Shown here one piece after another: positions 42,244 through 59,574 of a DNA stretch of 64,000 nucleotides. This DNA comes from Candidatus Binatia bacterium (GTDB taxonomy: Bacteria; Desulfobacterota; Binatia; UBA9968; JAJDTQ01), in assembly GCA_963666515.2 (NCBI GenBank), contig OY762897.2:800001-864000 (forward strand), read 5' to 3'. Each line of letters starts with the position of its first letter. The stretch's first letter is position 1. The position numbers and the translations under genes are program-made. The notes under the pieces were generated by a model. The model had not been told where the DNA came from, ran no database searches, and saw only the letters and a program-made list of their open reading frames with translations.

Positions 42244-44010
42244 ATGTCGGACATCAAGAAATCGGACCAGCGCTGGCAGTCGGACGTCATCGTCGACCTG
42301 ATGAAGCTCTACGACATCCCCTACGTCGCCCTCAATCCGGGGGCGAGCTACCGGGGTCTCCACGACTCCATGGTGAACTACGGCGAGAACGACCCCGAGA
42401 TGCTGCTGTGCAACCACGAGAAGATCGCGGTGCAGATCGCCCACGGCTACGCCAAGGCGTCGGGCAAGCCCATGATCGCCATCGTGCACGACGTGGTGGG
42501 GCTGCTGCACGCGCCCATGGGCGTCTACTACGCCTACATCGACCGCTGTCCGGTGTTCGTCATCGGCGCCACCGGGCCCATGGACGAGAAGTACCGGCGC
42601 CCGTTCATCGACTGGATCCACACGGCGTTCGCCCAGGGCGACGCGGTGCGGAACTTCACCAAGTGGGACTACCAGCCCGGCAGCATCCACGGCGTGCCGG
42701 ATTCCTTCGCCCGGGCCTACTCCATCATGATGAGCGAGCCCCAGGGGCCCATCTACATGTGCTACGACTCGGCGTTGCAGGAGACCCCGCTCACCGACGA
42801 TATCACGATCCCGCCGGCGTCCGCGGTCAAGGTGCCGTCGCGCATCGCGCCGGAGCAGGCGGCGGTGGCCCAGGCCGCGGAGATGCTGGTGAAGGCGGAC
42901 AATCCGCTGCTGCTCACCGAGTACGCCGCGCGCATGCCGGAGGGCTTCGAGCCCACGGTGGAACTGGCGGAAACGGTCGGGGCGTCGGTCTTCGACGTCT
43001 GCAAGCGGCTGGGCTTCCCCAACCGCCACGCCCTGAGCATGAGCTTCAACCCGGACGCCTTCGCGGGGGTGGACCTGGTGATGGCGCTGGACGTGGTGGA
43101 CTGGACCCGGGGCTCTCACAAGCTCAACACCCAGACCCGCGAGATCACGGTGGTGACGGCGCCCGACTGCAAGTGGGTCGACGCGGGCTTCGCCGACATC
43201 GAGATCAGCAAGTGGGCCACGGACTACAACAAGCACAACAACTGGGACCTGCGGGTCATGGGGGACACCGCCATCACCATCCCGGCGCTCACCAAGGCGT
43301 GCGGCGCCCTCATCGACGCCGATCCGGCGCTGAAGGAGCGCGTCGCGGAGCGCAGGAAGGCGCTGGCGGACAAGCACGAGCAGCAGTGGTCCAAGTGGCA
43401 GAAGCAGGTGGAGTCGGAGATGGACCAGCGGCCCATGACCGAGTCCCGGCTGGCCTGGGAGGTGTGGCAGGCCATCAAGGACGAGGACTGGGTGCTGACC
43501 GCCGGGACCCTGAAGGACTGGGTGCAGAAGATATGGGACTTCGACAAGCCCTACCGGCACCCGGGCCGGGAGCTGGGCACCGGCACCCAGATCGGCATGT
43601 CCATCGGCGTGGCGCTGGCCCACAAGGGGCAGGGGAGGCTGGTGGTGGACCTCCAGCCCGACGGCGACCTCATGTTCGACCTGGGCGCGCTGTGGATGCC
43701 CATCAAGTATGACATCCCCATGCTGGTGGTCATGTACAACAACCGCGCCTACTACAACGACTGGGCGCACCAGATCCACATGGCCCACCAACGCGGCACC
43801 GACCCCAACCGGGCCTACATCGGCATGGACCTGGAGGCGCCGCCGCCGGACTTTGCCCACATCGCCCGTGGCATGGGCTGGTATGCCGAAGGCCCCATCG
43901 AGGATCCGGCCGAGGTAGTGCCGGCGGTGCGCCGCGCCATCGAGCAGGTCAAGGCCGGCAAGCCGGCGCTGGTGGACCCCATCGTCTGGCGCCGGGACAT
44001 CAACACATGA
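42244..44010 (+). CDS. Thiamine-diphosphate-dependent enzyme (acetolactate synthase/decarboxylase superfamily)
   Basis: NPGAS, HEKIAVQIAHGYA, PDGDLMF...YNN cofactor motif. Confidence 0.88.
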   Translation: MSDIKKSDQRWQSDVIVDLMKLYDIPYVALNPGASYRGLHDSMVNYGENDPEMLLCNHEKIAVQIAHGYAKASGKPMIAIVHDVVGLLHAPMGVYYAYIDRCPVFVIGATGPMDEKYRRPFIDWIHTAFAQGDAVRNFTKWDYQPGSIHGVPDSFARAYSIMMSEPQGPIYMCYDSALQETPLTDDITIPPASAVKVPSRIAPEQAAVAQAAEMLVKADNPLLLTEYAARMPEGFEPTVELAETVGASVFDVCKRLGFPNRHALSMSFNPDAFAGVDLVMALDVVDWTRGSHKLNTQTREITVVTAPDCKWVDAGFADIEISKWATDYNKHNNWDLRVMGDTAITIPALTKACGALIDADPALKERVAERRKALADKHEQQWSKWQKQVESEMDQRPMTESRLAWEVWQAIKDEDWVLTAGTLKDWVQKIWDFDKPYRHPGRELGTGTQIGMSIGVALAHKGQGRLVVDLQPDGDLMFDLGALWMPIKYDIPMLVVMYNNRAYYNDWAHQIHMAHQRGTDPNRAYIGMDLEAPPPDFAHIARGMGWYAEGPIEDPAEVVPAVRRAIEQVKAGKPALVDPIVWRRDINT

Positions 44011-44032
44011 GGGCCTCTGAGAGGAACAGGAC

Positions 44033-45817
44033 ATGAGCAAAGCGGAAAAGATCGAAGCGGTCGAGATCAAAAAGTCGGACCGCAAGTGGCAGTCGGACGT
44101 TATCGTGGACATGGTCAAGCGCTACGGGTTCGAGTACATCGCGCTCAACCCCGGGGCCAGCTACCGGGGCCTGCACGACTCGCTGGTGAACTACGGCGAG
44201 AACGACCCGCCGATGATGCTGTGCAACCACGAGAAGATCGCGGTGCAGATCGCCCACGGCTACGCCCGCGCCAGCGGCAAGCCCATGATCGCCATCGTCC
44301 ACAACCTGGTGGGGCTGCTGCACGCTCCCATGGGGATCTACTACGCCTACCTGGACCGGGCGCCCATCTTCATCATGGGCGCTACCGGCCCCATGGAAGA
44401 ACCCAAGCGGCGCCCCTTCATCGACTGGATTCATTCGGCCAGCGTCCAGGGCGAGGCCATCCGCCACTACGTCAAGTGGGACTCCCAGCCCACCACCATC
44501 GACGCCGTGCCCGGCGCCTTCGCCCGGGCCTATGCGGTGATGATGAGCGGCAAGCAGGGGCCCATCTACATGTGCTACGACGCCGGCCTTCAGGAGGCCG
44601 CCCTGGACCACGAAGTGGCCATGCCGCCGGAGGACAACGTGCACGTGCCCGCGCAGGCGATGGCGGACCCCACGGCGCTGGAGAAGGCCGCGGACACGCT
44701 GGCCGCGGCCAAACGGCCCGTGATCGTGGCCGATTTCGCCGCCCGACCGCCCCACGGCTGGGACCACGTGGTGGAGTTGGCCGAGACCCTGGGCGCGGCG
44801 GTGTGGGACTGCGACTCGCGGCTCAACTTCCCCAGCGAGCATCCGCTGAACCTGAGCATGGACAGCGAGGGCTGCTACAAGGACGCGGACGTGGTGCTGA
44901 CCCTGGACATCGCCGATTTCGAGAAGCCCACCCACGTGCGCGACATCGCCACCCGCACGGTGGTGAGCATGGTGCCCGAGGACGCCACCTGGATCGACAT
45001 CGGCTACACCGACACGGAGATCAGCAAGTGGGCCATGACCTACGCGCGGCCGTTCTACGCCCACCAGCGCATGACCGCGGACCCCGTGACCGCGGCGCCG
45101 GCGTTGACGAAGCTCGTGAAGGAGCGCATCGCCGGAACACCGGGTCGGGCCGAGCAGATCGCCAAGAGGACCGAAGAGGTCGGCAAGCGCCACGCCGAGG
45201 TCCGGGCCGAGTGGCTCCGGCAGGCGCGGGAGGACCGCTGGGCCGCGGTGCCCATGACCGTGCCGCGGCTGGCGCTGGAGGTGTGGGACGCCATCAAGGA
45301 CGAGGACTGGGTGCTGACCTCCGGCACGCTCCACGACTGGGCGCGCCGGCTGTGGAACTTCGACAAGCCCTACCGCCACGGCGGCCGCGAGCTGGGCACC
45401 GGCACGCAGATCGGCATCTCCCTGGGCGTGGCCCTGGCCCACAGGGGGAAGGGCCGGCTGGTGGTGGACCTCCAGCCCGACGGCGACCTGATGTTCGACG
45501 CCGGCAGCCTTTGGATCGCTGCCAAGTACCAGATCCCCATGCTCATCGTCATGTACAACAACCGCGCCTACTACAACGACTGGAACCACCAGATCGTCAT
45601 GGCCCGCAACCGCGGCACCGATCCGAACCGCGCGCACATCGGCATGGACCTGTGCGGCCCGGACCCCGACTTCGCCACCATGGCCCGCTCCATGGGCTGG
45701 TACGGCGAGGGCCCCATCGAGAACGCCGACGACCTGAGGCCGGCCCTCGACCGCGCCATCGAGCAGGTCAAGCAGGGAAAGCCGGCGCTGGTGGACACCG
45801 TCACCCAGCGGCGCTGA
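44033..45817 (+). CDS. Thiamine-diphosphate-dependent enzyme, tandem paralog
   Basis: Same motifs as the upstream gene, with long identical peptide stretches. Confidence 0.88.
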   Translation: MSKAEKIEAVEIKKSDRKWQSDVIVDMVKRYGFEYIALNPGASYRGLHDSLVNYGENDPPMMLCNHEKIAVQIAHGYARASGKPMIAIVHNLVGLLHAPMGIYYAYLDRAPIFIMGATGPMEEPKRRPFIDWIHSASVQGEAIRHYVKWDSQPTTIDAVPGAFARAYAVMMSGKQGPIYMCYDAGLQEAALDHEVAMPPEDNVHVPAQAMADPTALEKAADTLAAAKRPVIVADFAARPPHGWDHVVELAETLGAAVWDCDSRLNFPSEHPLNLSMDSEGCYKDADVVLTLDIADFEKPTHVRDIATRTVVSMVPEDATWIDIGYTDTEISKWAMTYARPFYAHQRMTADPVTAAPALTKLVKERIAGTPGRAEQIAKRTEEVGKRHAEVRAEWLRQAREDRWAAVPMTVPRLALEVWDAIKDEDWVLTSGTLHDWARRLWNFDKPYRHGGRELGTGTQIGISLGVALAHRGKGRLVVDLQPDGDLMFDAGSLWIAAKYQIPMLIVMYNNRAYYNDWNHQIVMARNRGTDPNRAHIGMDLCGPDPDFATMARSMGWYGEGPIENADDLRPALDRAIEQVKQGKPALVDTVTQRR

Positions 45818-45860: not shown

Positions 45861-46241
45861 ATGCCGTATGAATACTACGACATAAGGGGTTACGAGCGGC
45901 TCATCGTCCGCATCACGCTGGGGCTCGACCCCGACACAGCCGATGACGTGGAGCGCTACGGCGCCGCCTCCGTCCTGTGGAGCCTCTACAACCGCCTTCG
46001 GGAAGATCAGCGGGAGGTGTTCCTCGTGGGGCTGGGCAACGCGCTGGAGAAGAACGCCAGCCGCAAGGCGCTGTCCCAGATGGTGCTGTTCGCGTCCAAC
46101 CCGGTGGTGGACGTGGACCACAGCATCGACATCCTCGGCGACTGGTTCATCAAGAACAAGAAGGCCGATCCGCGCCTGTACGAGGCGCTGGACGCCTACT
46201 GGCGCCGGCGGTTCAGACGCGGATTCGACGATGCCGCCTGA
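45861..46241 (+). CDS. Hypothetical protein
   Basis: 126-aa ORF with host-like GC3-rich codons; no motif recognised. Confidence 0.6.
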   Translation: MPYEYYDIRGYERLIVRITLGLDPDTADDVERYGAASVLWSLYNRLREDQREVFLVGLGNALEKNASRKALSQMVLFASNPVVDVDHSIDILGDWFIKNKKADPRLYEALDAYWRRRFRRGFDDAA

Positions 46242-46258
46242 TGCCGCCTGATGCCGCC
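46231..46258 (+). repeat. 10-bp tandem repeat ATGCCGCCTG x2.8
   Basis: atgccgcctg atgccgcctg atgccgcc read directly. Confidence 0.7.
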
Positions 46259-46459: not shown

Positions 46460-49150
46460 TCAGCGTGACGGCACCTCCCCGGGAACGAGACAGGCCAAGT
46501 TCTCGACAACTGGCAACGTGAACGGGAGTTCCAGGGCTTCTATCTGCGACTCGACGTACTGCTTTGCCTTTGTCATCAGATCCGCAACGTCACACGATGG
46601 GTGCACGTCCGCAAACATCGGGCTGCGGGGTTTGTCGGCCAATGGGTTCAGGCGCTGCATCAGTTCCCAGTCACGAACCAGGACCCATTCACCGTCGCCC
46701 TCCAGCCTGGTGGCCACGACGACGGCACGAATGGGGGCCGCCGAGCCGGTGACGCGGTCCTGTACCCTGAACACGAAGATCGGCGCGTCCAGGCCCCGGA
46801 CTGCGCCGAAAGCGCCGTTCAGTTCCACCGCATCGTGAACCGCTCGGTCGACGACCCGCAGTCCGACGCCAGCGACATCTTCCCCGTCCTTCGGTTGTGT
46901 TTCCCGGGCGAAGATAAGGTCGTAGCGATTCACCACGGCGATGGAGAAGTCGTCTCTCCACTCTTCCGGCGGAAGGAAGCTCAGACGCACATCCTCCGGC
47001 TGGTCGGGGCGCCGACCACGGACCGCCAGAATCGCCTTGAAGAACGGCACGAGATCCGGAAGATCCACTAAGGGGATCTGGCCCACTACCGATCCAAAGT
47101 CGAAGCGTGCGACATGGCCGACGAGATGGCGGACTGCCTTCACTGCGTCCTCGCCGCCAAATGTCGCGGTTTCCGTATCGAACCAGTCGTGGAGCGTTTG
47201 CCCACTGAGCGTGGGATCAGCGTAGGCGAACACCTTGGTGAACATGCCCGGCGATGCCATCCCGATCACGAGTTGGCGAATATCCTCGGGGTCGTCCATT
47301 GCCCCCCGAAAAGCCAAGTTGATTCGCTCCAGCTTCTCGTCCAGGAGATCCCAGATCCGGCTCTCCACCGTGTCCGGGTTTCGCACCGTGACTACATCGA
47401 CGGGGTCAGTTTGGCCGTAGCGGCTCAAGCGGCCGACACGTTGATGCAGGCGCATCGGGTTCCACGGCAGATCAACGTGAATCAAGGCGCTACAATGTCC
47501 CTGAAGGTCGACGCCCTCGCCAGCCGCTTCGGTCGAAACAAGGAAGCGCGCGTCCCCCCGGTTGAACCGTGCTGCCGCATCCTGCCGGTCTTCCTTCCAG
47601 CTCGAGATACTGCCAGACGAATCCTGCACATCGTCAAGGGCCCCGTCTCCGTTGATGAACGTCACACATCCGTCGCCGTAGCGCTTGTTCAGCGCGCTCA
47701 TAAGCAGCGCCTGGGTCGCCTTGTACTCTGTGAAGAAGAGCACTGACCTGTCGCGGAACTCTTCGTCGACCAGCGCAAGAATCCGTCCGATTTTCGTCTC
47801 TTCAGTCACCGCGTTTGCGGCCGCCAGCAATTCCTCGAGGGCTGGAATTTCGTTTGGATTGAGATCAACTCCACGCAGACTCTCCGCCACGCGTTCTTCC
47901 AGTTGACTGATCTCGTCCATATTGGCCGGATCGTCCTCAGCCTGCAGCTCTTGCAGTCGTACCAGATCCTCGCGCGAATCCTCCAACTTGGCCTTCGCCT
48001 GCTGCAGCCGGGCAAGTCGTCGAGCGAGGGCTCGTCGCACCGCCGCCACGGAGCTCGACGCCAGCTTCTGCATCGTAATCAGGATTAGAATCACCATGCG
48101 CCGATCCTGGAAACCGAGACCGGCCGCGTATGCTTTTCCGGTCACAATGAACTGAGTAAGCTGCTCGTAGAATCGCGCCTCTTGCGGAGAATATGCGTAC
48201 GTCTCTCGCCGTGACTGCACCGGGGTGAACAGCGGCTTGCCCGACATGTTCGTGACGGATTGCTTGTTGTTGCGGATCATCACGGTCCGGAGTTTTTCGA
48301 CCTGATCCTCAAGAGGCTCCCCGGGATCGAAGTCTTCTGGTCGAAGCAGCTTCAGCAGCGACAAGAATCCCGTGTCCTTGCCCCGATGGGGCGTACCCGT
48401 AAACAGCACCAGGGACTGTACTTTGCCTCGTTCCTGTAAGCGCTCCACCAGTTGATACGACAGCGTGCGGTGACCCTGTTCATCTACGTTCAAGTGGTGG
48501 GCTTCGTCGATGAGCACCAAGTCCCAGGGTTTTGCGTCGAATAGGCGCTCCCAACGATCACCTTTGTCGAGACGCAATGTATGCGCCGAAGCGACTATTC
48601 GGTCTTGGGTATTCCAGAAGTCCGAGGTTTTCGTATCGGCAGCGGGAACGTAGATCGAGACCCGGATGTCAAACATCTCCCGCAAACGCACTTGCCACTG
48701 TTCGACCAAGTTGGCTGGCGCCAGAATAAGCACCCGGCGCACGCGCCCCGCCGACAGGAGTGGCGTGAGGATGAGACCCGCTTCGATGGTCTTGCCAAGT
48801 CCTACATCGTCCGCTACCAGCCATCGCGTAGGCCACGATTCGAGCACGCGCTTGCAGACCCAGAGCTGGTGCGGCAGCAAGGCGATACGGGATCGGGAAA
48901 AGACGCCCCAAGCGTCGTTGACGGAACGAATGCACTCGCCCAGGATTCGCGTGACGACATCCAGAGCGGGGTCGAGATGTCCGGTGGCCACGCGTTCCGC
49001 GATATCCTCCAGCAGTTGGAGGTCGGTGGCCAGGCATTCCTCTATACCGTGCTCAAATCGGACCACAACGCTGTCGCCCTGATCCACGACGACTTGGCCG
49101 GGGCCGAAGCGGGGATGTCGCACTGCGGCCTTCTCGTCAAGTTGTGTCAT
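46460..49150 (-). CDS. SNF2-family (RapA/DrmD-like) helicase
   Basis: LVADDVGLGKT, LIDEAHH, FTGTPH, STEAAGEGVDLQ, DLPWNPMRLHQRVGR; ATG overlaps upstream stop (TGATG). Confidence 0.92.
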   Translation of the reverse strand: MTQLDEKAAVRHPRFGPGQVVVDQGDSVVVRFEHGIEECLATDLQLLEDIAERVATGHLDPALDVVTRILGECIRSVNDAWGVFSRSRIALLPHQLWVCKRVLESWPTRWLVADDVGLGKTIEAGLILTPLLSAGRVRRVLILAPANLVEQWQVRLREMFDIRVSIYVPAADTKTSDFWNTQDRIVASAHTLRLDKGDRWERLFDAKPWDLVLIDEAHHLNVDEQGHRTLSYQLVERLQERGKVQSLVLFTGTPHRGKDTGFLSLLKLLRPEDFDPGEPLEDQVEKLRTVMIRNNKQSVTNMSGKPLFTPVQSRRETYAYSPQEARFYEQLTQFIVTGKAYAAGLGFQDRRMVILILITMQKLASSSVAAVRRALARRLARLQQAKAKLEDSREDLVRLQELQAEDDPANMDEISQLEERVAESLRGVDLNPNEIPALEELLAAANAVTEETKIGRILALVDEEFRDRSVLFFTEYKATQALLMSALNKRYGDGCVTFINGDGALDDVQDSSGSISSWKEDRQDAAARFNRGDARFLVSTEAAGEGVDLQGHCSALIHVDLPWNPMRLHQRVGRLSRYGQTDPVDVVTVRNPDTVESRIWDLLDEKLERINLAFRGAMDDPEDIRQLVIGMASPGMFTKVFAYADPTLSGQTLHDWFDTETATFGGEDAVKAVRHLVGHVARFDFGSVVGQIPLVDLPDLVPFFKAILAVRGRRPDQPEDVRLSFLPPEEWRDDFSIAVVNRYDLIFARETQPKDGEDVAGVGLRVVDRAVHDAVELNGAFGAVRGLDAPIFVFRVQDRVTGSAAPIRAVVVATRLEGDGEWVLVRDWELMQRLNPLADKPRSPMFADVHPSCDVADLMTKAKQYVESQIEALELPFTLPVVENLACLVPGEVPSR

Positions 49151-52100
49151 CACTGCTCCAGGCCGAACCGACGGCGCAGTTCCGCGTTCAAGGCCACGTG
49201 TCGAAGGGGTATGTCGAAAGCACAATGGAGATTTGGGGTTTCCGTCCCCAACTTGGACGCCAGAAAGTTGAATATGGCACGTGCCTTCTCCGGATTGGAA
49301 AGACTTTCTTCCGACCTCAACCCGAGAGGCCTTAGGAAATCCAGGACCTGTTCGGAAGGAACCCAGCAGTACGGGAAGAGATGTTCGCCCGTAACAACTT
49401 CCAGACGCACTAGTTCTCGAAGTACCCAGTGGAGACCCATGTTGAGGGGCGCAGGCGGGGCATCGAAGTGTGTACCCGCGCCCGTGAGCGCTTCGTCGAC
49501 GCGTGGCGCAAGCAAGTGAGTGACTGAAGAAATGCTTTCAGGACGTCGGCCCGCCGATTTGAGCAAGCGAACATATACTGCCCGATACCGACTGAGTTGG
49601 TAGATTGCGGGAAACAGCGACATCCAATGCGGATACGTCAGCTTGGCCAAGGCGGTGTCGTGCCAGTCTCGCAGCACTCCCATCCAGGCATCGGCATCGT
49701 CAGGTGCCCTGAACACGCCCCACCATCCTTTCCTGTGGGCCAGCTCGAGAAAGTTTCGGTGTTGATCGTCATTTGTACGACCAAGGCTTCGGCACGCGCC
49801 TAGCACCAGCAGGGCGAGCCAATCATCTTCAGAATCGGCTTGCAGCCTGCCCGCTAGCCCGTCTCGCCGCAACCACTCGGGCCATACGTGCTTCTCGTAG
49901 GCAGCGATCACTGCCTTGCGCTCAGTGGCATCGTCCCACCATTCCACTAGTTGCCGATAGAATGCCTGAGAATCGAGCCCAACTGGCGCTGGCGGCTCCT
50001 CTGGAACCTGGGACCGGTCGGGAAACAGGGCACCCAGAAGTCTCTGGCGACGCCAAGGTTCCTCGCATAAGTCGCCGAGCATTCCGCGGACATCCTCGTA
50101 GTGCCGAAGCCACGGTGGGCGGGCGTTGAGAGGGACGAGATACGGAAGAACACGCTCTTGCAATTCTCCATCCAACAGATAGCGAACCGCAGCGGGGCGA
50201 AGGCCTGTTTCAAGGTCCATGTACCATTTCGCAATTTCGGCGGCATCAACGCGATGCTGCATCCGAAACCATCGGAATACGCTCCAATCTTCCCTGCATT
50301 CAATGTATGCCGGATCAAGAACCCGGGCGTCGGGAGCGAAGGCAGACCGCAGGAATTCCTCCCAGTGGTCTCCGTCGGCGTCATCCCGCAATACGGAGAC
50401 TTCTCGCAGCAGCAATCTTCGCAGTGGCTGAAGGCTTCCGTCCGCTGCTTGGGCTTGAATCTTGCCTCGCCAAGCTGCGCCGTGCGGATCGTTGGACATC
50501 AGGTTCCAAGCCGGATCTTGAGAAAGAGGGCGAATTGCGTGCAGCCGAGCCGGCGTCAAACGGTAATCCCACCGTCGAGCCAGTTCCGCCAACAGGTCGC
50601 ACGGGCGAAGCGGGGTCGAGCGGATGTGATCGTCCATTCCTGGGAAGTTGCGCAGTGGAAGGAGGAGCCGCTCGGTTTCCTCCGATACGACGAGGTGGCT
50701 TTCCAACAAACGCGCGAAATCTTCATCGTCCACTTCAGCGAGGGCGGCGCATAGCTCCGGGTTGTCCAAACCATCGACTGCGACTTTCCACGACATCCCG
50801 GAATTCAGCGGGGGCAACAGTGGGGAAAATGGCGCCGGAAGTCCGGTTGGCACGACGCCACGGGCGGCCATCCATGCGGATAGCCCGCGACCGTTCCCAT
50901 GCAATCTGCAAAGAAACATCCGGCGTAGCTTGTCGGAGGTCGCCGTGCCGGAAACGAGAGCCTTCCAGAGTGACGGCAGAAAGCTTCGACCGTCAACCCC
51001 AATCATGGGTCCATTGGGTTCATACGCTGCCTGTCGAGTATCGGCCAACACTTCGTGAAGGTTGAGCAGGCCTTCTCCGAGCGCTTCGCCGAGGTCACTG
51101 ACGGCTCGAAGGGTCGTATCGTCATCGAGCGACACATGGGTTCTGCCAGGGTCGAGCTTGAAGGGTCCGTTAACGACGTATCCGCAGCCCCAACTCTCGC
51201 TCGTGGGCGTGACGTTCCAGAGAAACGGCACATCCGGGTTGAAAGCGGTGGGAACGCCATCTCGAAGCCCGATGGCCAACGCTGTGGTACCCATATTGTC
51301 CCGTCCCGCGTCCGCAGGTCGGAAACGAAGGACTCGCCAGCGGCCGGGATGGTTGGGGAAATCGGTCTCGGCACCGATCGACCACCCGGGCGCGCCGTCG
51401 ATCTGCTTTCCGTCGAAGACGTGGGTCCCGGGAAACGGTCCGCCCTCCACAACGACTTCTTGCACCTGCCGTGCGAATACTGGCAACAGGACACGCGCGC
51501 AGGCAAAACGACCGAACATCTCCGAGATCAGCGTGTGTGCTTCGACATCCGAGCGCAGGGGCAGCCGGACGCGCGTTGCTCGACGGCCTTCAACCATCCA
51601 TGAATCCACATTGTCGGCGACGGCCTGTTCCTGCGGCAGTAACCCTCCGGCAATGGAGAAGGCGATGAAGCCGCTGACCACGGACGGAGACGACGAGACG
51701 AGGTGGACGGATTTGAAGCCGAGGCCAAAGCGCCCGGTGGTCGAAGATGAAGAGGACTCTCCAGGAGCCTCGCCGGGTTTGCCGCTCAGATTCATGAGCA
51801 TCATGAAATAGAGGTCCTGATCCCACTGACGCTCTCGCCCGGCGGGGAATACAGCGCCGCCAGAGTCGTTGATCGGACGCCCCCAGTGCATGATGTCCAC
51901 GGTGGGTACGCCGCCATGTTCGTGGATTCGGACAAAGAGACGACGGGTGGCAAGAGGCAGCGGTCCGCCGTTGATCTCGGCGGCCTCTGCAAGCGCGTCG
52001 TCGGCGTTCTGCACGAGTTCCAACAGCACGCTGTCGCGTCCGTAGCCGTAGCGCCGCATCATCTCGTTGACTCGCTTCCAAAGGAATGTCCGATGCTCGG

Positions 52101-55100
52101 GCGCTTCGACGAGGGACGCCAAGTGGTCCAGGGCTTCTCTCTCGATCTTGAGCTTGACCAAGTTGATCGGCTGTGCCTGCTCCCGCTTCCTTTGCGCCTG
52201 CTCGGCCTTCCTGAGGGCGTCCCTGAGCGGTTCGTTGTCCTTGACATCGAGCTGTTGAAGCGTGAGCGGCAGATGCGCCTTGATAGAGGCTAGCACGGGA
52301 GCGAGGTTCGCTTGGGAGGTGGTGCTCCATCGGGACCACCAACGGTTTACCTGCTCGCGGTCCAGCTTAAGGTACCCGCAGGCCCATCTCTCGACGGTGC
52401 CGCCGAGCAGGTGCAAGAGTTCGGACGTGGAGCGGTTCTGCGGCTCGACGTCACGCAGAGTGATCTCCCAGAAGGGGCCAAGCGGCTTGAGCATATACTG
52501 CGAGCGGGGGTACCGAATGGGGTCGATGGCGAACAGCGTGTCGTCGTCGGGTTCGGCTTCCATCTCCAGCTGTGATCCCAGGACATTGACCGCACTCACA
52601 CGGTCACTATGCGCGACCTGTGGTCGGACGAAGACACTGATATCTGCACAGGGATCCTGTCCGCTCGGGCCGACGAATTCGCTACGTATTGCGTCGATGC
52701 TGACGTCTTCGCCAAGCCATTGCTCAGCAAGCGTCGCGATAGTCCCGTGCAGGCCGCTGCCCAGCAAACTGAGGAATGCACCGACAGCGGCGGGCTGGAG
52801 TCGTCCACGCCAAGGCTCGAAGTACTTTTCCAACGTGTCCAGTCCGTAGCCACCCCAGCCGGGTTGGATAAGTTCCGGTCCAGGGCTCCGGTCGTCGCCG
52901 GTAAGTTGGAGAATTGGGCGGAGTTCGGAAACCAGGCGGTGCCGACGCGCGATGCCGGTTTCGGATCGTGCGACGTCGCGGCTCTCATGCCAATTGCCGT
53001 CCTGGGTCGGTAGGTGGATTTTTGGCAGGACATGCGTGAAAAAGTTTTCCGTCTTTGCGAAACAGCCCAAGAGTGTGAGGAACATACGCCCGTCGGAAGA
53101 TCCCTTCGGCGGTCTTTTGTCGGCAAGGCCGGTCAGCATTTGGATCTGACGGTTCGGGGGGATAGGCGCACAGAGTGCTTTTGCCAACCTCAAGAGCAGT
53201 TCCGAATCATCTCCGAGTCCACCGTCACCGTGTCGCAGAACATTCTTGACGAAGTGCACCAGCTTCCATCCGCGATGGCTGCTGGAGAGCGTCGTTTCAA
53301 GTGCGCACTCGAGCAACGGAACGGTGACCAGTTCTGGTTGCGGTAGGACAAGCCACGCGCCGTCATCCACCTGCGCAACCTTGTCGGAATCCAGGGCGTC
53401 GACCATCCGCCGTACTTGGATGTTGCGATTTGGTCGCCCAAGTGCTTCGCGGACCACCGGCTCCGCTACGCGCCAAATCTCTCGCTCGACGATGTCGGGA
53501 AGCCGCTTGTCCTTAAGGGCACCGGCCGCCGCGAGGTCGGCGATGGCATCCAGCACTGCTTGCGGGGCGACGAGCACCGCATCCGGCGCAAGACCCCCGC
53601 CATCGCGACGCGGGAGCCAACATCCGTCCCTCAGTAGTCCACGCAGTACACGGACTTGCGGCAGCGTCATTTGGCCGTCGGCGGGACATACCGCCTGCAC
53701 GATCTGCCTGGCAAAACGCCACGGACGCGAATCCTCCAGCATGAGTCGAAGGACGCCGTCGCGGTCCATGACGGGAAGGGACTCGTAGAGATGGGCAAGC
53801 TGGGGATACGGATCCAGGATGCGCACTTCTGCAGCGAGTTCCGGCGGCAATGGAAATTCGTCCGTCGCCCCCGTCGAACGCCGTGCGAGTTGATCGAACG
53901 CCCCGCGACTTCCGTCAACGCCCCGGTGAAGTGGCATCCTTTGCCAGCGTCGGCGATCCTCCGGTTCAGGGCTGTACAAGCTTCGGAGTAGAAGCAGTGC
54001 CTCCTCGTTGCCAAGCACCGTCCAGTCGACAGGTTGTTCCAGGCAGAGGCAGTCACCGAGAATCCGATGTAGCACTTTGAGGTCGGCCCGACTGACGGAT
54101 AGTGCGTTGGCGAGATCTTGTGAAATCGTATCGACCCACCTGCCTTGAACCGTGCGCCATGACTGGTCCATGAGTCGCAACAGGATGGCCAGTGCTCGCG
54201 CATTGTCGTCGTCGCCGTGGAAAAGCTCGGTATCCTGCCCGACGACATCTACCGCGCGCCCTGCAAGGAGCGCACGTGCGGCCAAACGAACACTGTCGTT
54301 GTCCGTGATGTTCGGCGCGAGCCGATTGAGCAGCCGTGTCCGATGGGCAGGCTCGGCGAACCGTTCGGCTCGAAGCACTGCAGCGGCCAATGCCTCTGGT
54401 GTGGGTGACGGCGCATCGGCGATGGATCCCACCACGTCACCGCTCACGAACCAAGCGGCTTCGTCGAGCGCCTTCGCAAGTTCCATGACGGCCTGCTTCG
54501 GATCGGCGAGTCGTTCCGGCCGGATTCTGTCTGTGCCGTTGGAGTCCGTAAACTCCGAAGCCGGACTGGCGAATACCCGGCGGTTCTCGATTTGGCGGCG
54601 CAACTCGACGATGGACCAAGCTTCCTCCCGATCCTCCGGTAACCTGACCGCCCGCAGCAACGGCACCTTAACCAGATGCTGAACCATGGGGTGGTTATGT
54701 CGTCGTCTGGATAGCAGCGTCTCGGCAAGGACAAGCCGGGAGTGCCGCAATGGCTCCGATTCGCCTTCCACTTCCAAGCGTCGTCCCAAGGTCAACAGCG
54801 CACGATCCAACCGTTCCTGGTCAAGCTGCGGGGCCGTCGGCGACCCCTCTGGACGCCGTCCGAACGGCAGCGGGAACAGCCCTTCGCCTATCATCTCTTC
54901 TGCAGCAAGCTCGACAACGGCCTGTTGGCTTTCCACAGGTGTTTCGACCAGCCACGCCTTCGGCAGCCCGTGGCACAGATCTCGCCACGCCTCCCGCAAC
55001 TCGTCGCGAGATTCTCTCGAGACTGAACGTCGGGTCGTATGGGCAAGCGCGCCGTCGCCGATCTTTCCCGCAAGCCATCGAGCGACTGCGGCGGCGCGTA

Positions 55101-56130
55101 TATCTCCGTCACGGGCGTCCTGACCGATGACATGGAAGACAACTCCCTTGATCCAATGCAGAGATTGCAGAGACCCGAACACGTCGCCCGGAATGCAGTT
55201 CAGGAGGCGTTCGAGCGGGTCGACGGTCCAATCGTCGAGGTCACCTGCGAAACGGGGGACAGCGTCGTCGATGAACACGTCATCGCCCGTGCGTTGGCTG
55301 CAAGGGTCCACGAACTGCCTGCGAACAGCCTCGGGCGCCTGACTCCACTTTGGGATCGACAGAACAGGACGTGCATTCGCGTCAAGCGCTCTCCATCGAA
55401 CCCCGTCGGTCGCAACAACTGGTAGGAGCCAATGTCGTCGGGTGACGAACTCCAAGCGGTTCTTGACCATTTCCGAGCCGATGACCGCCTCTAGCAGCCT
55501 CCGTACTGCGCGCTCGCCGACTCCATCTACCGCATTGGCGAGGGCGCTTGGCAGCAAAGGAAGCAGCAGCTCTTCGCACAGCGTCCTGTTCCAACGAACG
55601 CGCATGTCACGTTCACTTGCGGCATCGCCAATATCGTCGGTGACGCCGGGAATGGACCGGCGGTCCTGGGACGGCCAGAAGTAGCCGCACAGGATGATTT
55701 CCCAGGCAGGCGAGGGACCGTGGCTCTCCACGATCGCACTGGAACTCGGCTCGGGATCGTCGTCCAGCGGCAGGAACACGGCCCAGCGGAGCCGTGTTCC
55801 CGAAAGCTGGTCATCCAAGTCGCTGGGTCGCAGTACGGTAACTGCGGCGTGAGCGAGAGCCTTCCGCGGCACCGGGGAGTAGCGACCGTGTCGCCACTGC
55901 GGGGATTGCGGCCAATCGGGCTGCGACCGGAGTCGAGACAAGCTTTCGTTGCCGCGTACCTCGATTCCTGCGACGGACCAGCTCCGATTGTCGGAGATAA
56001 TTTCGCCCTCGAAGGCCTGGTCCGAGAAATACCCGCGGTCGTCCGTATATCGCCCGACCCATCCCACCGTCTGCCGGGTCACACACACTAGCGAGGCTTC
56101 GCCTCAGACCGACGAGGGGGTAAGGGGATT

Positions 56131-56234
56131 GGCTCCGGTCGCTTGTAGCAGGGATTGAATCCCTGGTCATGGGACCTTGCAAGGTCGGACCTCAAAGGGT
56201 CAAATGGGCATAAAAGCCCGAAGCAACCGGAGCC
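56131..56234 (+). other. Multibranch structured leader (RNA or ssDNA) of the element
   Basis: 14-bp outer stem (one mismatch) 56131-56144/56221-56234 enclosing four small hairpins. Confidence 0.65.
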
Positions 56235-56238
56235 GGAC

Positions 56239-57846
56239 ATGAGCCTACCACAAACCGTAGCGGAAGTATTGCGCGATCACGTGACGCTGGAATACGAGTC
56301 GGTGGATCGCCTGTACTTGAACCTGTATGTGCCGCAGTTGCAGAGCGTGGGCGGGGTAGTGGGGTATCTGCACAAGCACCATGGCCAGCGGTTTGCGTCG
56401 ACGGTGGCGCTGGCGCCCAAGAGTCGGGAGTTCGTGCAGGCGGTGAAGGACTTTGCGGAGCGGGAGCAGATCGAGGTGGTGCACTTCAAGAAGGGCCAGC
56501 GCAAGGACGAGGTGACGCAGGAGTACCTGGGGCGGTTCAAGGGAACCGAAGGGGTTTTGTACATCGGGATAGCGCAGGAGAAGGCCCGTGTGATGCGCAC
56601 CGAGCGGCGCCGGAACCCGGACACCGGGGTCACCTATCCGTGGGTGGTCTCGTCTACCGCGATGGTCAACCATGTGTATTTCTATTGCGTGGACAAACAG
56701 GCGGGGCCGTTCTTCATCAAGTTCTGCACCTACTTCCCGTACAACGGCAAGCTGTGCCTCAACGGCAACGAGTACGCCAAGTGCCAGTTGCGCGAGCGCG
56801 GCATCCCGTTCGAGGCTTTGGACAACGGCGTGCGCTGCTGCGGAGACCCCGAGGCGCTGCAACAGATCTGCGAAGGCTTCGATGCCGCTTTCATCGACAG
56901 ACTGGCGCGCAAGTGGTTCGATCGCCTGCCGCATCCGTATACGCCTCAGGACCGTCGCGCCGGTCTGCGCTACGACATCTCCATCCTGCAAGCGGAGTTC
57001 AGCCTGACCCAGGTGCTCGACCGCCCGGCCTCGGGCCGCGTCTTTTTCGAGGACGTGATCCGCGAGAACCTCGATCTCGGTCGCCCCAGCCAGGTGCAGT
57101 TGATCTTCCAGCGCCGGGTCACCCGGCGCACCCCCGGTCGGTTCCGTACCCGGGTCATCACCGCAGGCGTCACCCCTTCCTTGCACGTGGACTACAAGCA
57201 CTCGCGCATCAAGCAGTACCACAAGGAAGGGCAGGCGCTGCGCACCGAGACCACCGTCAACGACACCTATGACTTCGCCCTGGGCCGGCGGCTGTCTAAC
57301 CTGGCGGCGTTGTGCCAGGTCGGCTTCACAGCCAACCGTCGTCTGTTGCAGATAGAAACCATCAGCCACGACTGTGCCCTGGGTGAAGACGAACTCCAAC
57401 GCCATCAACGCGGCCTGGAGTTCCACGGACAACGCGCCTCGGCCCTGCGCTTCGCCGATGAGCGCGTGCAGGCTCTGATGCAGGCCCTGCTCTTGTTCAC
57501 TCTTTCGGCCCGCGGCTTCTCCAACCGCGACCTGCGCGGGCACCTCGGTGCACTCCTGGGCCTCGATCCCAGTCCAATGCGCCCGGGCCGAATGAGTTAC
57601 GACCTGAGACGCCTGCGCCTGCACGGCCTGATCGAGCGCATCCCCGGCGCCTACCGCTACCACTTGACCGAACACGGCCTCAAGGTGGCGATGTTCTACA
57701 CGCGTGTCTACAACCGCATCCTTCGCCCCGGCCTGGCCCATCTTGCGCCCGACGCCGTGAGCGGCAATACCAAGACCCATCGGCGCTTTGCCGCCATCAC
57801 CAGGAACCTCGATGCCATTTGCGATGAGGCGAAGCTCGTCGCTTAA
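56239..57846 (+). CDS. Putative transposase: Rep-initiator-like domain plus C-terminal winged HTH
   Basis: Only long coding-like ORF in the element; YKHSRIKQYHK..LRTETTVN motif; wHTH-like SYDLRRLRLHGLIERIPGAYRYHLT. Confidence 0.7.
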   Translation: MSLPQTVAEVLRDHVTLEYESVDRLYLNLYVPQLQSVGGVVGYLHKHHGQRFASTVALAPKSREFVQAVKDFAEREQIEVVHFKKGQRKDEVTQEYLGRFKGTEGVLYIGIAQEKARVMRTERRRNPDTGVTYPWVVSSTAMVNHVYFYCVDKQAGPFFIKFCTYFPYNGKLCLNGNEYAKCQLRERGIPFEALDNGVRCCGDPEALQQICEGFDAAFIDRLARKWFDRLPHPYTPQDRRAGLRYDISILQAEFSLTQVLDRPASGRVFFEDVIRENLDLGRPSQVQLIFQRRVTRRTPGRFRTRVITAGVTPSLHVDYKHSRIKQYHKEGQALRTETTVNDTYDFALGRRLSNLAALCQVGFTANRRLLQIETISHDCALGEDELQRHQRGLEFHGQRASALRFADERVQALMQALLLFTLSARGFSNRDLRGHLGALLGLDPSPMRPGRMSYDLRRLRLHGLIERIPGAYRYHLTEHGLKVAMFYTRVYNRILRPGLAHLAPDAVSGNTKTHRRFAAITRNLDAICDEAKLVA

Positions 57847-58752
57847 ACTACCGAGCGTTACAACTCGCGATGGCCTACGATAGTATTCATGTACGAACGA
57901 AGTCCAGTTCAAATATCTTGTCTTCCTGAGTCAAGATCCTGTCGATCAAGGATTCTAGTCTTTCCAGGTTGCGTAGACTCTCCGGCCCTGCTGCACGCTC
58001 TGCTTCGATAGTGTGAAGATGCCCGCACTGCGCCAGCAGCAATGCGGCGGGCGTCGCGCATCTGATCCAGGCGCAGAGATCATCCGTTTGCGGGCAATGT
58101 GTCCCCAACCCGTACTGGTGACCTTCCACACCGCGATCCAGATGTTGGGGAAGTCGCAACGGTACCCACAGCAGGAGGCCGTTGCTCGAATTCCCAATGA
58201 GTTCCGTCGTCACTGACCGCAGCCGCTCGACGTCAATCTCGTGCCAGTCGGGATGCAGGGGATCGGCTTCTCCGCTTTCTCCGGTCCCCGCCCACGGGTT
58301 CAGAACGCCGGCACGCCACTTCCCATCCTGGGCTCCGATGTAGAGAAATGCCTCGCATATATGGAAGACGCTCTTCAACCCAATACCGAAGGTGCCGATC
58401 TTGCCAACCTCGTCCTCCTTGGATCCGCCGACGGCCTTATGCAGCGCCTCACGATCTTGGTCGGGGAACTCCCCGTCGTTCGCAACCAGGAGTGCAGGTC
58501 CGTGGAGCAGACTGTTTCGCGCATCGGTCCAACCGCGCTCCAGCACCGCGAGCTTGAGACGGCGTGCACCTGCGTCGTCGGCATTTTGGACCAGTTCCCG
58601 GAACAGGGCGCGTCCATCCCCGGCATCCTTGTAGACGTCAGCCAGAAGGGTCTGGATTGCCTTGATCTCGTCGAGCGGGCTTCGGACGATGCCGGAGTTT
58701 GGTCGGACATCGACGTCGGGCAGCCGTGCTTGGTCAGACCCGACCGTAGGCA

Positions 58753-59574
58753 TCAGTCGTCGAAGAATGCGAGAGTCCGGATCTCGATGCTCTCCCGCGG
58801 CGGCGCGTCCGCCGGGGTGCTGGGGTGCTCGAAGGCGGAATGGGCGGAAAAGCGCGCCCGGCCGTCGGTCTTCGAGTCGTAGCACTTGAAGACGATGGCC
58901 TCGTCGGGCTGCATGTCCGGGAAGTAGTAGAACCGGTGGCCGGGGCTGTAGGTCAGGTGGTAGGTCTCGCCGAGCCGGTTGGGGTGGGGCCGCACGGTGG
59001 GGATGAGGTCCTCGGTGGCGATGCTCTGGGCGTCGCACATGGCCAGGGGATCCCGCAGCACCGGGTTCAGCATGCCGCGCCACACCTGGACCACCGCGAA
59101 GCGGCGCTTGAACAGATCGTCGGCCTCGTCGGGCAGCAGGTCGCGCACCCGTTCCGGGCCGGACCACTCGGTGTAGTCGTTGTGCACGTTCTGGACCGGT
59201 GCCTTGGCGCCCTTTTCCTCGTAGCCGGAGCGCAGGGTATGGTCGAAGATCAGCACCCGGCAGGCGCCGGTGTTCTCCTTGATCAGCGCCTCCATCTCGG
59301 GATAGTAGACCGCCCGGATCTCGTCCTCGTCGAAGAAGTCGGTCATCTTCGTGGGCTGGGGCCGCAGGGCGAAACCGTGGTGCTCAATGGAGAGCTCGGG
59401 GTGGTTGCGGCCGTTCCGGACCGAGGCCGTGTGGGTCTCGTACGTCCGGTCCTTGTGCGGATAGCCGAGGCTGGGCTTGTCCCAGGTGGTCACGGGCCGA
59501 GGGCCGGTGTGCACCATGTAGTTGAAGCTCGCTTCAACGGCGTCATCGAGAGTTTCCGCTACCGCTGTGGCCAT
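58753..59574 (-). CDS. CmcJ/NvfI (AsaB-like) oxidoreductase
   Basis: YYPEMEALIK, FDHTLR, VHNDYT, PLAMCDA, FKCYDS, HSAF, RESIEIR. Confidence 0.85.
   Translation of the reverse strand: MATAVAETLDDAVEASFNYMVHTGPRPVTTWDKPSLGYPHKDRTYETHTASVRNGRNHPELSIEHHGFALRPQPTKMTDFFDEDEIRAVYYPEMEALIKENTGACRVLIFDHTLRSGYEEKGAKAPVQNVHNDYTEWSGPERVRDLLPDEADDLFKRRFAVVQVWRGMLNPVLRDPLAMCDAQSIATEDLIPTVRPHPNRLGETYHLTYSPGHRFYYFPDMQPDEAIVFKCYDSKTDGRARFSAHSAFEHPSTPADAPPRESIEIRTLAFFDD

What the first reader, a model, noticed from the sequence alone, without database searches (positions are those of the whole stretch)
46460..58753. Giant double sacsin-like ATPase plus SNF2 helicase: candidate two-gene defence system
Seen: after removing the insertion, one ORF of about 2578 aa (266 + 2312) carries two ELVQNADDA..G(T/R)FG(I/L)G(L/F)KSV modules separated by more than 1000 aa of unassigned sequence. 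Its stop overlaps the start of an 896-aa SNF2 helicase (TGATG). Established: these motifs are the Hsp90/GHKL-like sacsin repeat ATPase, and SNF2 helicases and GHKL ATPases recur in anti-phage systems (e.g. DISARM DrmD). Inference: a coupled accessory module, probably defence-related, with no methylase or recognisable nuclease here and not matching a named system I can identify. This copy is probably inactivated.
Basis: partly seen in the sequence, partly recalled or inferred. Interest (0 to 1): 0.75.

Follow-up and report, generated by a model that had tools for sequence, protein, structure and literature searches.

The report
Twin-ATPase glycosylase-fold protein plus helicase pair
Two genes that always travel together across many bacterial phyla - a giant protein with two ATP-driven clamps and a tip shaped like a DNA base-inspecting enzyme, and a DNA motor - look like an undescribed anti-virus system that may spot chemically disguised phage DNA; the copy here is broken by a jumping element.

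Summary
Observation confirmed. Removing a 1,867-bp element bounded by CTAG (56088/57955) gives one 2,578-aa ORF, ungapped against intact homologues; its stop overlaps the ATG of an 896-aa RapA-like SNF2 ATPase. The pair is strictly coupled: 76 of 80 GTDB loci picked by the SNF2 carry the giant, and the 4 misses are contig ends. It spans 17 phylum-level groups and has no conserved third gene. Both sacsin-type GHKL modules keep their catalytic residues. New here: the C-terminal ~270 aa fold as an HhH-GPD DNA-glycosylase domain. The 23 best structural matches are all of that fold (best Ogg2, Z 11.4), yet the classical Lys/Asp are absent, as in the inactive sensor domain of END nucleases. No nuclease or methylase was found. 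21 of 71 loci have RM/BREX/Dnd/GmrSD-type neighbours, 0 of 12 in this window's clade; no matched background was run. Best reading: a modified-base-scanning defence machine (reader, translocase, twin clamp), untested. It is not Tiamat, DISARM or END by defining features. The window copy is probably inactive.

The parts
57956..58753 (-). Giant gene, 5' piece (codons 1-266): first sacsin-type GHKL ATPase domain. As it stands it reads on 22 codons into the insertion and stops at 57887 (288 aa).
   Evidence: Pfam SACS E 1e-19; sacsin crystal structures 5v44-5v47 E 2e-12 to 6e-11; 74-80% identical to homologue N-termini; translation
56088..57958 (.). IS-like insertion: 1,867 bp plus one CTAG, CTAG at both junctions, no terminal inverted repeats, antisense to the giant gene
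   Evidence: CTAG at 56088 and 57955 and frame restored on removal; ends shared with Caballeronia and Burkholderia copies that have different flanks; no end-to-end inverted repeat among the 25 longest listed
56239..57846 (+). 535-aa ORF of the insertion: putative transposase/recombinase of an unnamed family
   Evidence: No significant Pfam, NCBIfam, PADLOC or PDB-sequence match; up to 65% identical 'hypothetical proteins' in 28 plasmid records, 42 places; Atlas clusters of up to 1,884 unnamed members. Transposase role is inferred.
56095..56240 (+). Structured non-coding left end of the insertion (multi-hairpin)
   Evidence: z = -3.7, 0 of 200 shuffles fold as well; no Rfam family
49150..56088 (-). 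Giant gene, 3' piece (2,312 aa; joined aa 267-2578), no internal stop
55456..56088 (-). Transducer-like region of ATPase module 1, cut off from its GHKL domain by the insertion; carries the LHG-F-x-x-x-x-R motif
   Evidence: Arg invariant in 106 of 106 full-length homologues; transducer assignment inferred from motif position and the Tiamat preprint section 17
52063..55455 (-). ~1,130-aa linker, mainly alpha-solenoid with small beta inserts; poorly conserved; no catalytic motif seen
   Evidence: Model pLDDT 88; Foldseek best rows HEAT/ARM solenoids at E 3e-3 or worse; VIA best Z 6.9, uninformative; conservation map
50967..52065 (-). Second sacsin-type GHKL ATPase plus transducer
   Evidence: E, N, GxxGxG, K and transducer R each 106 of 106; HHalign of module 1 vs module 2, probability 98.6%
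49153..49974 (-). C-terminal HhH-GPD DNA-glycosylase-fold domain (joined aa ~2305-2578). Classical Lys/Asp positions not conserved; invariant G2484, R2490, E2491, R2494, D2558.
   Evidence: Model pLDDT 93; VIA rows 1-23 all glycosylase-fold, Z 11.4-5.5, next 4.3; Atlas leads DUF2400/AGOG/HhH-GPD at 0.90-0.91; column counts
46460..49150 (-). 896-aa RapA-like SWI2/SNF2 ATPase, helicase motifs intact, translationally coupled to the giant (TGATG)
   Evidence: closest solved relative RapA E 3e-47 vs <=2e-19 for chromatin remodellers
58753..59574 (-). Context, not part of the module: host CmcJ/NvfI-family oxidoreductase whose TGA overlaps the giant's ATG
   Evidence: NCBIfam NF041278, 300 bits; GC3 0.92 vs 0.67-0.71 in the pair; sequence

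Best explanation
A mobile two-gene defence module that inspects DNA for non-self chemistry. SHOWN: the genes are inherited as a unit; the giant has two GHKL+transducer ATPase modules with intact catalytic motifs, a helical linker and a C-terminal HhH-GPD glycosylase fold (predicted structure); the partner is an intact RapA-type SNF2 ATPase. No methylase is needed because the mark read is on the invader. The window copy is probably off, since the insertion separates GHKL-1 from its transducer.
For: Coupling: 76 of 80 loci, the 4 misses having 17-212 nt upstream; gene gap -11 to +80 nt in 68 of 71 measured; the same 5 of 72,556 plasmids carry both. No third gene: largest neighbour family in 7 loci. 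Fold. Missing Lys/Asp but invariant R/E/R/D pocket residues. Both ATPases intact. Mobility: the window's SNF2 clade (14 rows, support 100) mixes 8 phyla at 60-83% identity; low GC3 in the window; Tn7-CAST cargo in Vibrio locus L076. Defence neighbours in 21 of 71 loci and beside DISARM, NucS/type I RM and HNH genes on plasmids. Precedent: inactive EndoIII sensor (PMC12191111, section 9); sacsin-clade GHKL plus helicase defence (10.64898/2026.09.30.754977).
Against: No experiment. No effector domain identified. 50 of 71 loci show no defence hallmark among the nearest genes scanned, 0 of 12 in the window's clade do, and the 33 other window genes scanned are metabolic, transport or unassigned; no matched background was computed. 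Foldseek found no significant match for the C-terminal model and no Pfam or PDB-sequence glycosylase match exists, so the fold call rests on one structural aligner plus a language-model lead whose recognition value (2013) was under the tool's 2300 mark. Catalytic positions were mapped by recalled motif spacing, not by residue-level superposition. HhH folds also bind DNA without reading bases.
Confidence: 0.36

Rival explanations
1. Same machine, but the HhH-fold domain is itself the weapon: a non-canonical monofunctional glycosylase (acid from invariant E2491 or D2558) that, driven by the SNF2 and gated by the clamps, strips modified bases from phage DNA, like an ATP-powered Dag1.
For: E2491 203 of 204, D2558 198 of 204, R2490 203 of 204. 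In Dag1 the essential Asp is the late D184, not the canonical one (10.1101/2025.10.29.685425, section 5), and D2558 lies at a similar distance from the hairpin (inference). Explains the lack of a nuclease. Best matches are Ogg2 and the queuosine-nucleotide glycosylase.
Against: The Lys position holds C/H/N and the Trp four residues after the late Asp is absent; both were essential in Dag1.
Confidence: 0.22
2. A DNA-repair or transcription-rescue module: the HhH fold finds lesions or cross-links and the RapA-like SNF2 clears stalled RNA polymerase or other proteins. Not anti-phage.
For: All top fold matches are repair enzymes; RapA is the closest solved helicase; it occurs in Deinococcus and cyanobacteria; solitary in housekeeping context in the window's clade.
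Against: Patchy, cross-phylum distribution; splits, frameshifts or insertions in 14 of 60 loci, about five being a recurrent cyanobacterial two-gene split; clustering with RM/BREX/DISARM/CAST. These fit defence cargo better.
Confidence: 0.15
3. An accessory of neighbouring RM/BREX/DISARM systems (a loader or back-up against modified phages) that does nothing alone.
For: PADLOC holds a full-length profile of this SNF2 under the name DrmD; several loci lie directly upstream of DISARM-like, BREX-like or type I RM genes; MORC/paraMORC GHKL ATPases with SF2 helicases work inside RM operons (PMC2292703 passages).
Against: The partner system differs from locus to locus, no neighbour family exceeds 7 loci, and the pair stands alone in the window's clade.
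Confidence: 0.12
4. A protein-sensing abortive or chaperone-like system: the solenoid and GHKL clamps bind a phage protein, as Hsp90 or sacsin bind clients, and unleash the SNF2 on host DNA or RNA polymerase; the HhH fold is only a DNA anchor.
For: 1,130-aa solenoid linker; tandem sacsin-type repeats; the Tiamat preprint suggests TPR-like folds may bind viral antigens.
Against: The HhH domain and ATPases are conserved while the solenoid is the least conserved part; no toxic effector domain found.
Confidence: 0.12

Closest known systems
Tiamat (TmtA) and Tiamat-like proteins (preprint 10.64898/2026.09.30.754977; seen: abstract, sections 8, 17, 21, 23, passages; figures and supplements not seen)
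   Same: Sacsin-clade GHKL ATPase plus transducer, long helical middle, C-terminal DNA-acting domain, helicase neighbour (including Swi/Snf) in some subtypes; PADLOC TmtA profiles hit the ATPase motifs.
   Different: Two ATPase modules instead of one; no DUF3684 or NOV_C/DUF3883 Pfam match in 17 of 17 homologues; C-terminus is an HhH-GPD fold; helicase is obligate. The preprint's main text has no mention of glycosylase, HhH or EndoIII, and multiple ATPase domains only for SACSIN homologues.
END nucleases (PMC12191111; seen: passages and section 9)
   Same: C-terminal EndoIII/Ogg-like domain lacking catalytic residues, proposed to sense hypermodified phage bases.
   Different: END fusions named there are to PLD, NucS-like or McrB domains; here the partner domains are twin GHKL ATPases plus a separate SNF2, with no nuclease found. 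Descent from the END sensor was not tested.
Dag1/Dag2 antiphage glycosylases (10.1101/2025.10.29.685425; seen: part 1 of 6, section 5, passages)
   Same: HhH glycosylase fold used against modified phage DNA; conserved late Asp.
   Different: Dags are small stand-alone enzymes needing Lys118 and Trp188; that paper's main text has 0 hits for ATPase, helicase or fused.
DISARM class I DrmD
   Same: RapA-like SNF2; one PADLOC DrmD profile matches full length at 949 bits.
   Different: Below both NCBIfam DrmD cut-offs; no conserved DrmA/B/C or methylase; the Trichormus plasmid has a separate annotated drmD nearby.
Eukaryotic sacsin (PMC3710099 passages)
   Same: Tandem Hsp90-like ATPase modules in one giant chain; closest solved structures of module 1.
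   Different: Two modules, not three; no J, HEPN or ubiquitin-like domain detected; ends in a glycosylase fold; paired with a helicase.
MORC/paraMORC restriction systems (PMC2292703 passages)
   Same: GHKL+S5 ATPase encoded with an SF2 (sometimes SWI2/SNF2) helicase in mobile defence loci.
   Different: Different GHKL family (sacsin type); those operons carry nucleases and often methylases.

Membership tests
Tiamat | Sacsin/Hsp90-like GHKL ATPase domain | tested here: met
   Pfam SACS, NCBIfam NF047352, PADLOC TmtA motif hits; two copies
Tiamat | C-terminal PD-(D/E)xK nuclease (NOV_C/DUF3883) | tested here: not met
   No such Pfam match in the window pieces or 17 homologues; the C-terminal domain folds as all-helical HhH-GPD
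Tiamat | DUF3684 middle region | tested here: not met
   No Pfam DUF3684 match at E<=0.01 in 17 homologues; TmtA profiles match only the ATPase motif stretch
Tiamat-like (loose definition of the preprint) | Score against the authors' Tiamat HMMs comparable to curated Tiamats | not testable with these tools
   Their HMMs and Data S3-S6 are in supplements that could not be read
DISARM class I | DrmD SNF2 above curated cut-off | tested here: not met
   NF038317 277/610, NF038318 166/950 bits; but PADLOC PDLC02634 949 bits
DISARM class I | DrmA, DrmB (DUF1998), DrmC and a methylase in the locus | tested here: not met
   Absent from the 33 window genes scanned; not a conserved neighbour in 80 loci
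END nucleases | EndoIII/Ogg-like domain lacking classical catalytic residues | tested here: met
   Fold and column counts; residue mapping rests on recalled motif spacing
END nucleases | Fused PLD, PD-(D/E)xK nuclease or McrB domain | tested here: inconclusive
   None by Pfam or conservation; the fold search of the 1,131-aa linker was too coarse to exclude a small domain; joined aa ~1975-2155 and the SNF2 C-terminus were not folded
HhH-GPD glycosylase superfamily | Two-lobed helical fold with helix-hairpin-helix motif | tested here: met
   VIA Z 11.4, rmsd 3.6 A, 199 of 209 residues to TM1821 Ogg; 23 of 23 rows with Z>=5 are of this fold; L-G-[IM]-G hairpin conserved
HhH-GPD glycosylase superfamily | Catalytic Asp after the hairpin (plus Lys in bifunctional members) | tested here: not met
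   Lys position: C72 H57 N53 P11 of 204; Asp position: S63 T38 R29 V27, D not among the top seven
Anti-phage defence system (functional) | Protects a host against phage or plasmid | not testable with these tools
   Only context evidence
Sacsin | Three ATPase repeats, J domain and HEPN domain | tested here: not met
   Two repeats; no J or HEPN Pfam match

The most novel reading that the evidence does not exclude
A widespread, nuclease-free and methylase-free class of modification-dependent restriction: one chain with two GHKL modules forms its own asymmetric ATP clamp, is towed along DNA by a dedicated RapA-like translocase, and uses a glycosylase-fold tip with a new R/E/R/D pocket to find, and perhaps excise, hypermodified phage bases. 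It would also be a bacterial counterpart of the tandem-repeat architecture of human sacsin, offering a tractable model for why sacsin repeats its ATPase.
Probability: 0.3. Interest if true: 0.88.

Novelty: new variant of a known kind. Interest (0 to 1): 0.72.

Why it matters
Phages hypermodify DNA to escape restriction. The known counter-measures are small glycosylases or reader-nuclease fusions. A 3,500-residue, three-ATPase machine built around a glycosylase-fold reader would be a different solution. It is common (667 clusters at 50% identity with E<=1e-10 for the C-terminal region; 17 phylum-level groups) but invisible to Pfam and PADLOC beyond the ATPase motifs, and PADLOC labels the helicase DrmD. 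Intact copies exist in cultured, deposited strains, so the hypothesis is directly testable with modified-versus-unmodified phage panels. It also gives a bacterial two-repeat sacsin-like protein for studying how tandem GHKL modules cooperate.

Tried and rejected
Complex prediction of SNF2(1-715) with the HhH domain returned no verdict (score 0.00); not used as evidence either way. Foldseek on the C-terminal model found nothing significant in PDB or BFVD; Pfam, PADLOC and PDB-sequence scans of the domain alignment found no glycosylase. Fold searches of the linker gave only generic solenoids and helical bundles, no nuclease; this does not exclude one. The search for giant-SNF2 fusions among proteins of 1,569-4,480 aa gave 3 hits, none containing giant domains; weak evidence. 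No internal repeats beyond the two ATPase modules by HHalign (the other high rows are overlaps of adjacent slices). No homologue of the C-terminal region in 50,697 phage records; no DNA match of the Vibrio SNF2 in the 20,395 E. coli records (DNA-level only). No tRNA, Rfam family, promoter or terminator downstream, or shared flanking DNA with close loci, so the integration route is unknown. Rejected: frameshift or assembly artefact (frame restored exactly at CTAG); self-splicing of the insertion (antisense to the gene, no Rfam intron hit); DrmD identity. The first maximum-likelihood tree did not finish; FastTree was used. Literature searches without a description of this pair; for the insertion, (0 papers). 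The library lacks most subscription journals, and DefenseFinder models were not available.
Full report
OBSERVATION. Three ORFs lie on the minus strand between 58753 and 46460, interrupted by a plus-strand ORF at 56239-57846. Intact homologues align to the window in two blocks, 58741-57956 and about 56100-49153. The element's ends were fixed by comparing it with two plasmid copies: similarity starts at CTA[AG]CGAGGCT on the left and ends at TCAAGGA[AT]TCTAG on the right. CTAG lies at 56088 and 57955. Removing the 1,867 bp between them restores one ORF of 2,578 aa, 68-74% identical to four homologues and ungapped over the junction. Its TGA overlaps the ATG of the 896-aa SNF2, and its own ATG overlaps the TGA of a host CmcJ/NvfI gene. 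GC3 is 0.67-0.71 in the pair against 0.89-0.96 in five flanking genes. The 33 other window genes scanned are metabolic, transport or unassigned, with no defence family. The pair is a foreign island on its own.

FAMILY AND COUPLING. The giant has 283 homologues at E<=1e-10 among 7,999 candidates scored. Its last 423 aa hit 667 representatives of 50%-identity clusters at E<=1e-10, and 59 of the 61 listed hits longer than 2,300 aa show both ATPase motifs. In 72,556 plasmids, 5 records hold a full-length SNF2 orthologue (47-49%) and the same 5 are the only ones hit by the giant; in the five regions read, the giant lies directly upstream. A GTDB scan with an SNF2 alignment kept the best 80 of 469 relatives. 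76 of the 80 contain the giant's C-terminal domain; the other 4 have only 17-212 nt upstream. One of the 76 is inverted next to a transposase (L031) and one has a transposase between the genes (L021). The gap is -11 to +80 nt in 68 of 71 measured. The reverse direction (giant first) was tested only on the plasmids and, indirectly, by 39 shared contig lengths between the two top-120 protein lists. Pairwise identities of the two genes correlate over 69 loci (Spearman 0.69, 0 of 999 permutations as high), which shows co-inheritance, not contact. Clustering 537 heuristically called neighbour genes gave no family in more than 7 loci, so the unit is two genes. 46 of 60 loci with enough upstream DNA keep a single ORF of at least 2,400 aa; five cyanobacterial loci share a split into about 820 + 1,850 aa.

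ANATOMY. Module 1 and module 2 are homologous (HHalign 98.6%). In 106 full-length sequences the catalytic Glu and Asn are 103 of 106 (3 gaps) in module 1 and 106 of 106 in module 2; the glycine box is 105-106 of 106; a downstream Arg is 106 of 106 in both. That this Arg is the transducer finger is inferred from Hsp90/Tiamat. The linker models as a helical solenoid (pLDDT 88) with no informative fold match and no conserved acidic cluster. The last 423 aa model at pLDDT 93. Against 48,161 solved chains, the 23 rows with Z>=5 are all HhH-type glycosylase folds covering model residues ~149-423: Thermotoga Ogg (Z 11.4, rmsd 3.6 A, 199 aligned), queuine-salvage glycosylases (9.0, 8.7), EndoIII (8.7), Mag, NTHL1, OGG1, MutY, AGOG, AlkA, ROS1, TAG; the next row scores 4.3. 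The tool warns that helical models can reach such Z by chance; the case rests on the uniformity of the list and the gap below it. The Atlas independently offered DUF2400, AGOG and HhH-GPD clusters at 0.90-0.91, carried by 10-33% of members, with a sub-threshold recognition value. Foldseek, Pfam and PDB-sequence searches did not detect the link. In 204 aligned sequences the hairpin L-G-[IM]-G is kept, the position of the lyase Lys holds C/H/N, and the position of the catalytic Asp holds S/T/R/V, while R2490, E2491, R2494 and D2558 (joined numbering) are 203, 203, 199 and 198 of 204. Those two positions were assigned from recalled EndoIII/Ogg motif spacing. The SNF2 keeps all helicase motifs and is nearest to RapA; its C-terminal 250 aa show no nuclease motif but were not folded.

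CONTEXT. 261 of 262 nearest neighbours (up to two upstream and three downstream; one left out for size) from 71 loci were scanned with Pfam. By my reading, 17 loci have a clear RM, BREX, Dnd, McrBC, GmrSD, OLD or DUF499 hallmark (L014, 016, 023, 029, 033, 035, 037, 049, 054, 056, 058, 060, 062, 064, 076, 077, 079) and 4 a softer one (L018, 021, 025, 046): 21 of 71. The defence status of DUF499, DUF4007 and DUF6361 is recalled. None of the 12 scanned loci of the window's clade has one. No matched background was run, so enrichment is not quantified. On plasmids the pair sits beside DISARM (Trichormus), NucS and type I RM remnants or an HNH gene (Deinococcus), and an AAA/RecD-like pair (Sphingomonas). 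The window's SNF2 falls in a clade of 14 rows (support 100) spanning 8 phyla at 60-83% identity, consistent with recent transfer, although bin contamination and FastTree limits apply. Several of these taxon names are, from memory, sponge-associated.

MECHANISM. Best reading (0.36): a reader-motor-clamp machine that recognises modified or aberrant bases on incoming DNA and blocks it or hands it to a nuclease. The close variant in which the domain excises bases by non-canonical chemistry gets 0.22; together the DNA-modification-reading idea has about 0.58. Repair (0.15), accessory role (0.12) and protein-sensing (0.12) remain. I put defence of some kind at about 0.75. Shown: coupling, domain order, intact ATPase motifs, predicted fold, missing classical residues. 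Inferred: DNA binding, base reading, clamp geometry, physical contact between the two proteins, output.

COMPARISON. It works like a cross between Tiamat/MORC (GHKL plus helicase) and END/Dag (HhH fold against modified phage DNA). It fails defining features of Tiamat, DISARM and sacsin, and lacks a detectable END nuclease domain. Nine literature searches returned no description of the pair; for most listed papers I saw only the listing. The Tiamat preprint's figures and supplements, not seen, could list it among Tiamat-like proteins, and defence catalogues newer than PADLOC 2.0 were not available.

THIS COPY. The insertion cuts module 1 between its GHKL domain and its transducer, leaving a 288-aa product. 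The 3' piece and the SNF2 are undecayed, so the event is probably recent; inactivity is likely but not shown. DNA similarity to close relatives begins only at about codon 11, so the native promoter region may also have been replaced.

VERDICT. Real, widespread, tightly coupled and apparently undescribed; a strong candidate for a modification-reading defence system, function untested. Interest 0.72; new variant of a known kind.

Noticed in passing
window 56088-57958: The insertion belongs to a large unnamed family: 535-aa 'hypothetical protein' with no Pfam or PDB match, multi-copy on plasmids, no terminal inverted repeats, CTAG target with a shared CTA core at both ends in three copies, and a strongly folded left non-coding end (z -3.7). 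The geometry recalls IS110-type elements (recalled), but the protein matches no known transposase model. It deserves its own study.
   Followed up: partly
L013 14132-18382 (Geobacter MAG): A 1,417-aa RNA polymerase beta-prime-like ORF lies between an NYN gene and a second SNF2, directly downstream of the pair, inside what looks like a defence island and without a beta subunit beside it.
   Followed up: no
L076 12773-17109 (Vibrio sp.): The pair lies between a type I HsdR gene and TniQ-Csy2-Csy3, i.e. probably cargo of a CRISPR-associated Tn7 transposon.
   Followed up: no
L001, L006, L007, L009, L012 (cyanobacteria): The giant is repeatedly split into about 820 + 1,850 aa after ATPase module 1, suggesting the modules can work in trans.
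   Followed up: partly
L022, L032, L049, L054, L079; P0209, P0227, P0254: A longer subtype (2,700-2,840 aa) whose first module scores much higher against Pfam SACS (143-188 bits vs about 85-110), possibly a swapped, more sacsin-like module 1.
   Followed up: no
PADLOC profile PDLC02634 vs window 46460-49150: This 'DrmD' profile matches the partner helicase end to end (949 bits); it may have been built from pairs that merely sit beside DISARM, as on the Trichormus plasmid (inference).
   Followed up: partly
window 45861-46241 (+): 126-aa ORF with host-like codon use and no family or plasmid match, ending in a short tandem repeat GATGCCGCCT at about 46229-46258 near the island edge.
   Followed up: partly
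P0390: One 2,411-aa protein carries this SNF2 (49% identity, full length) fused to a second helicase-like/AAA region instead of the giant.
   Followed up: no
window 42244-45817: Two tandem paralogous thiamine-pyrophosphate enzymes (588 and 594 aa).
   Followed up: no
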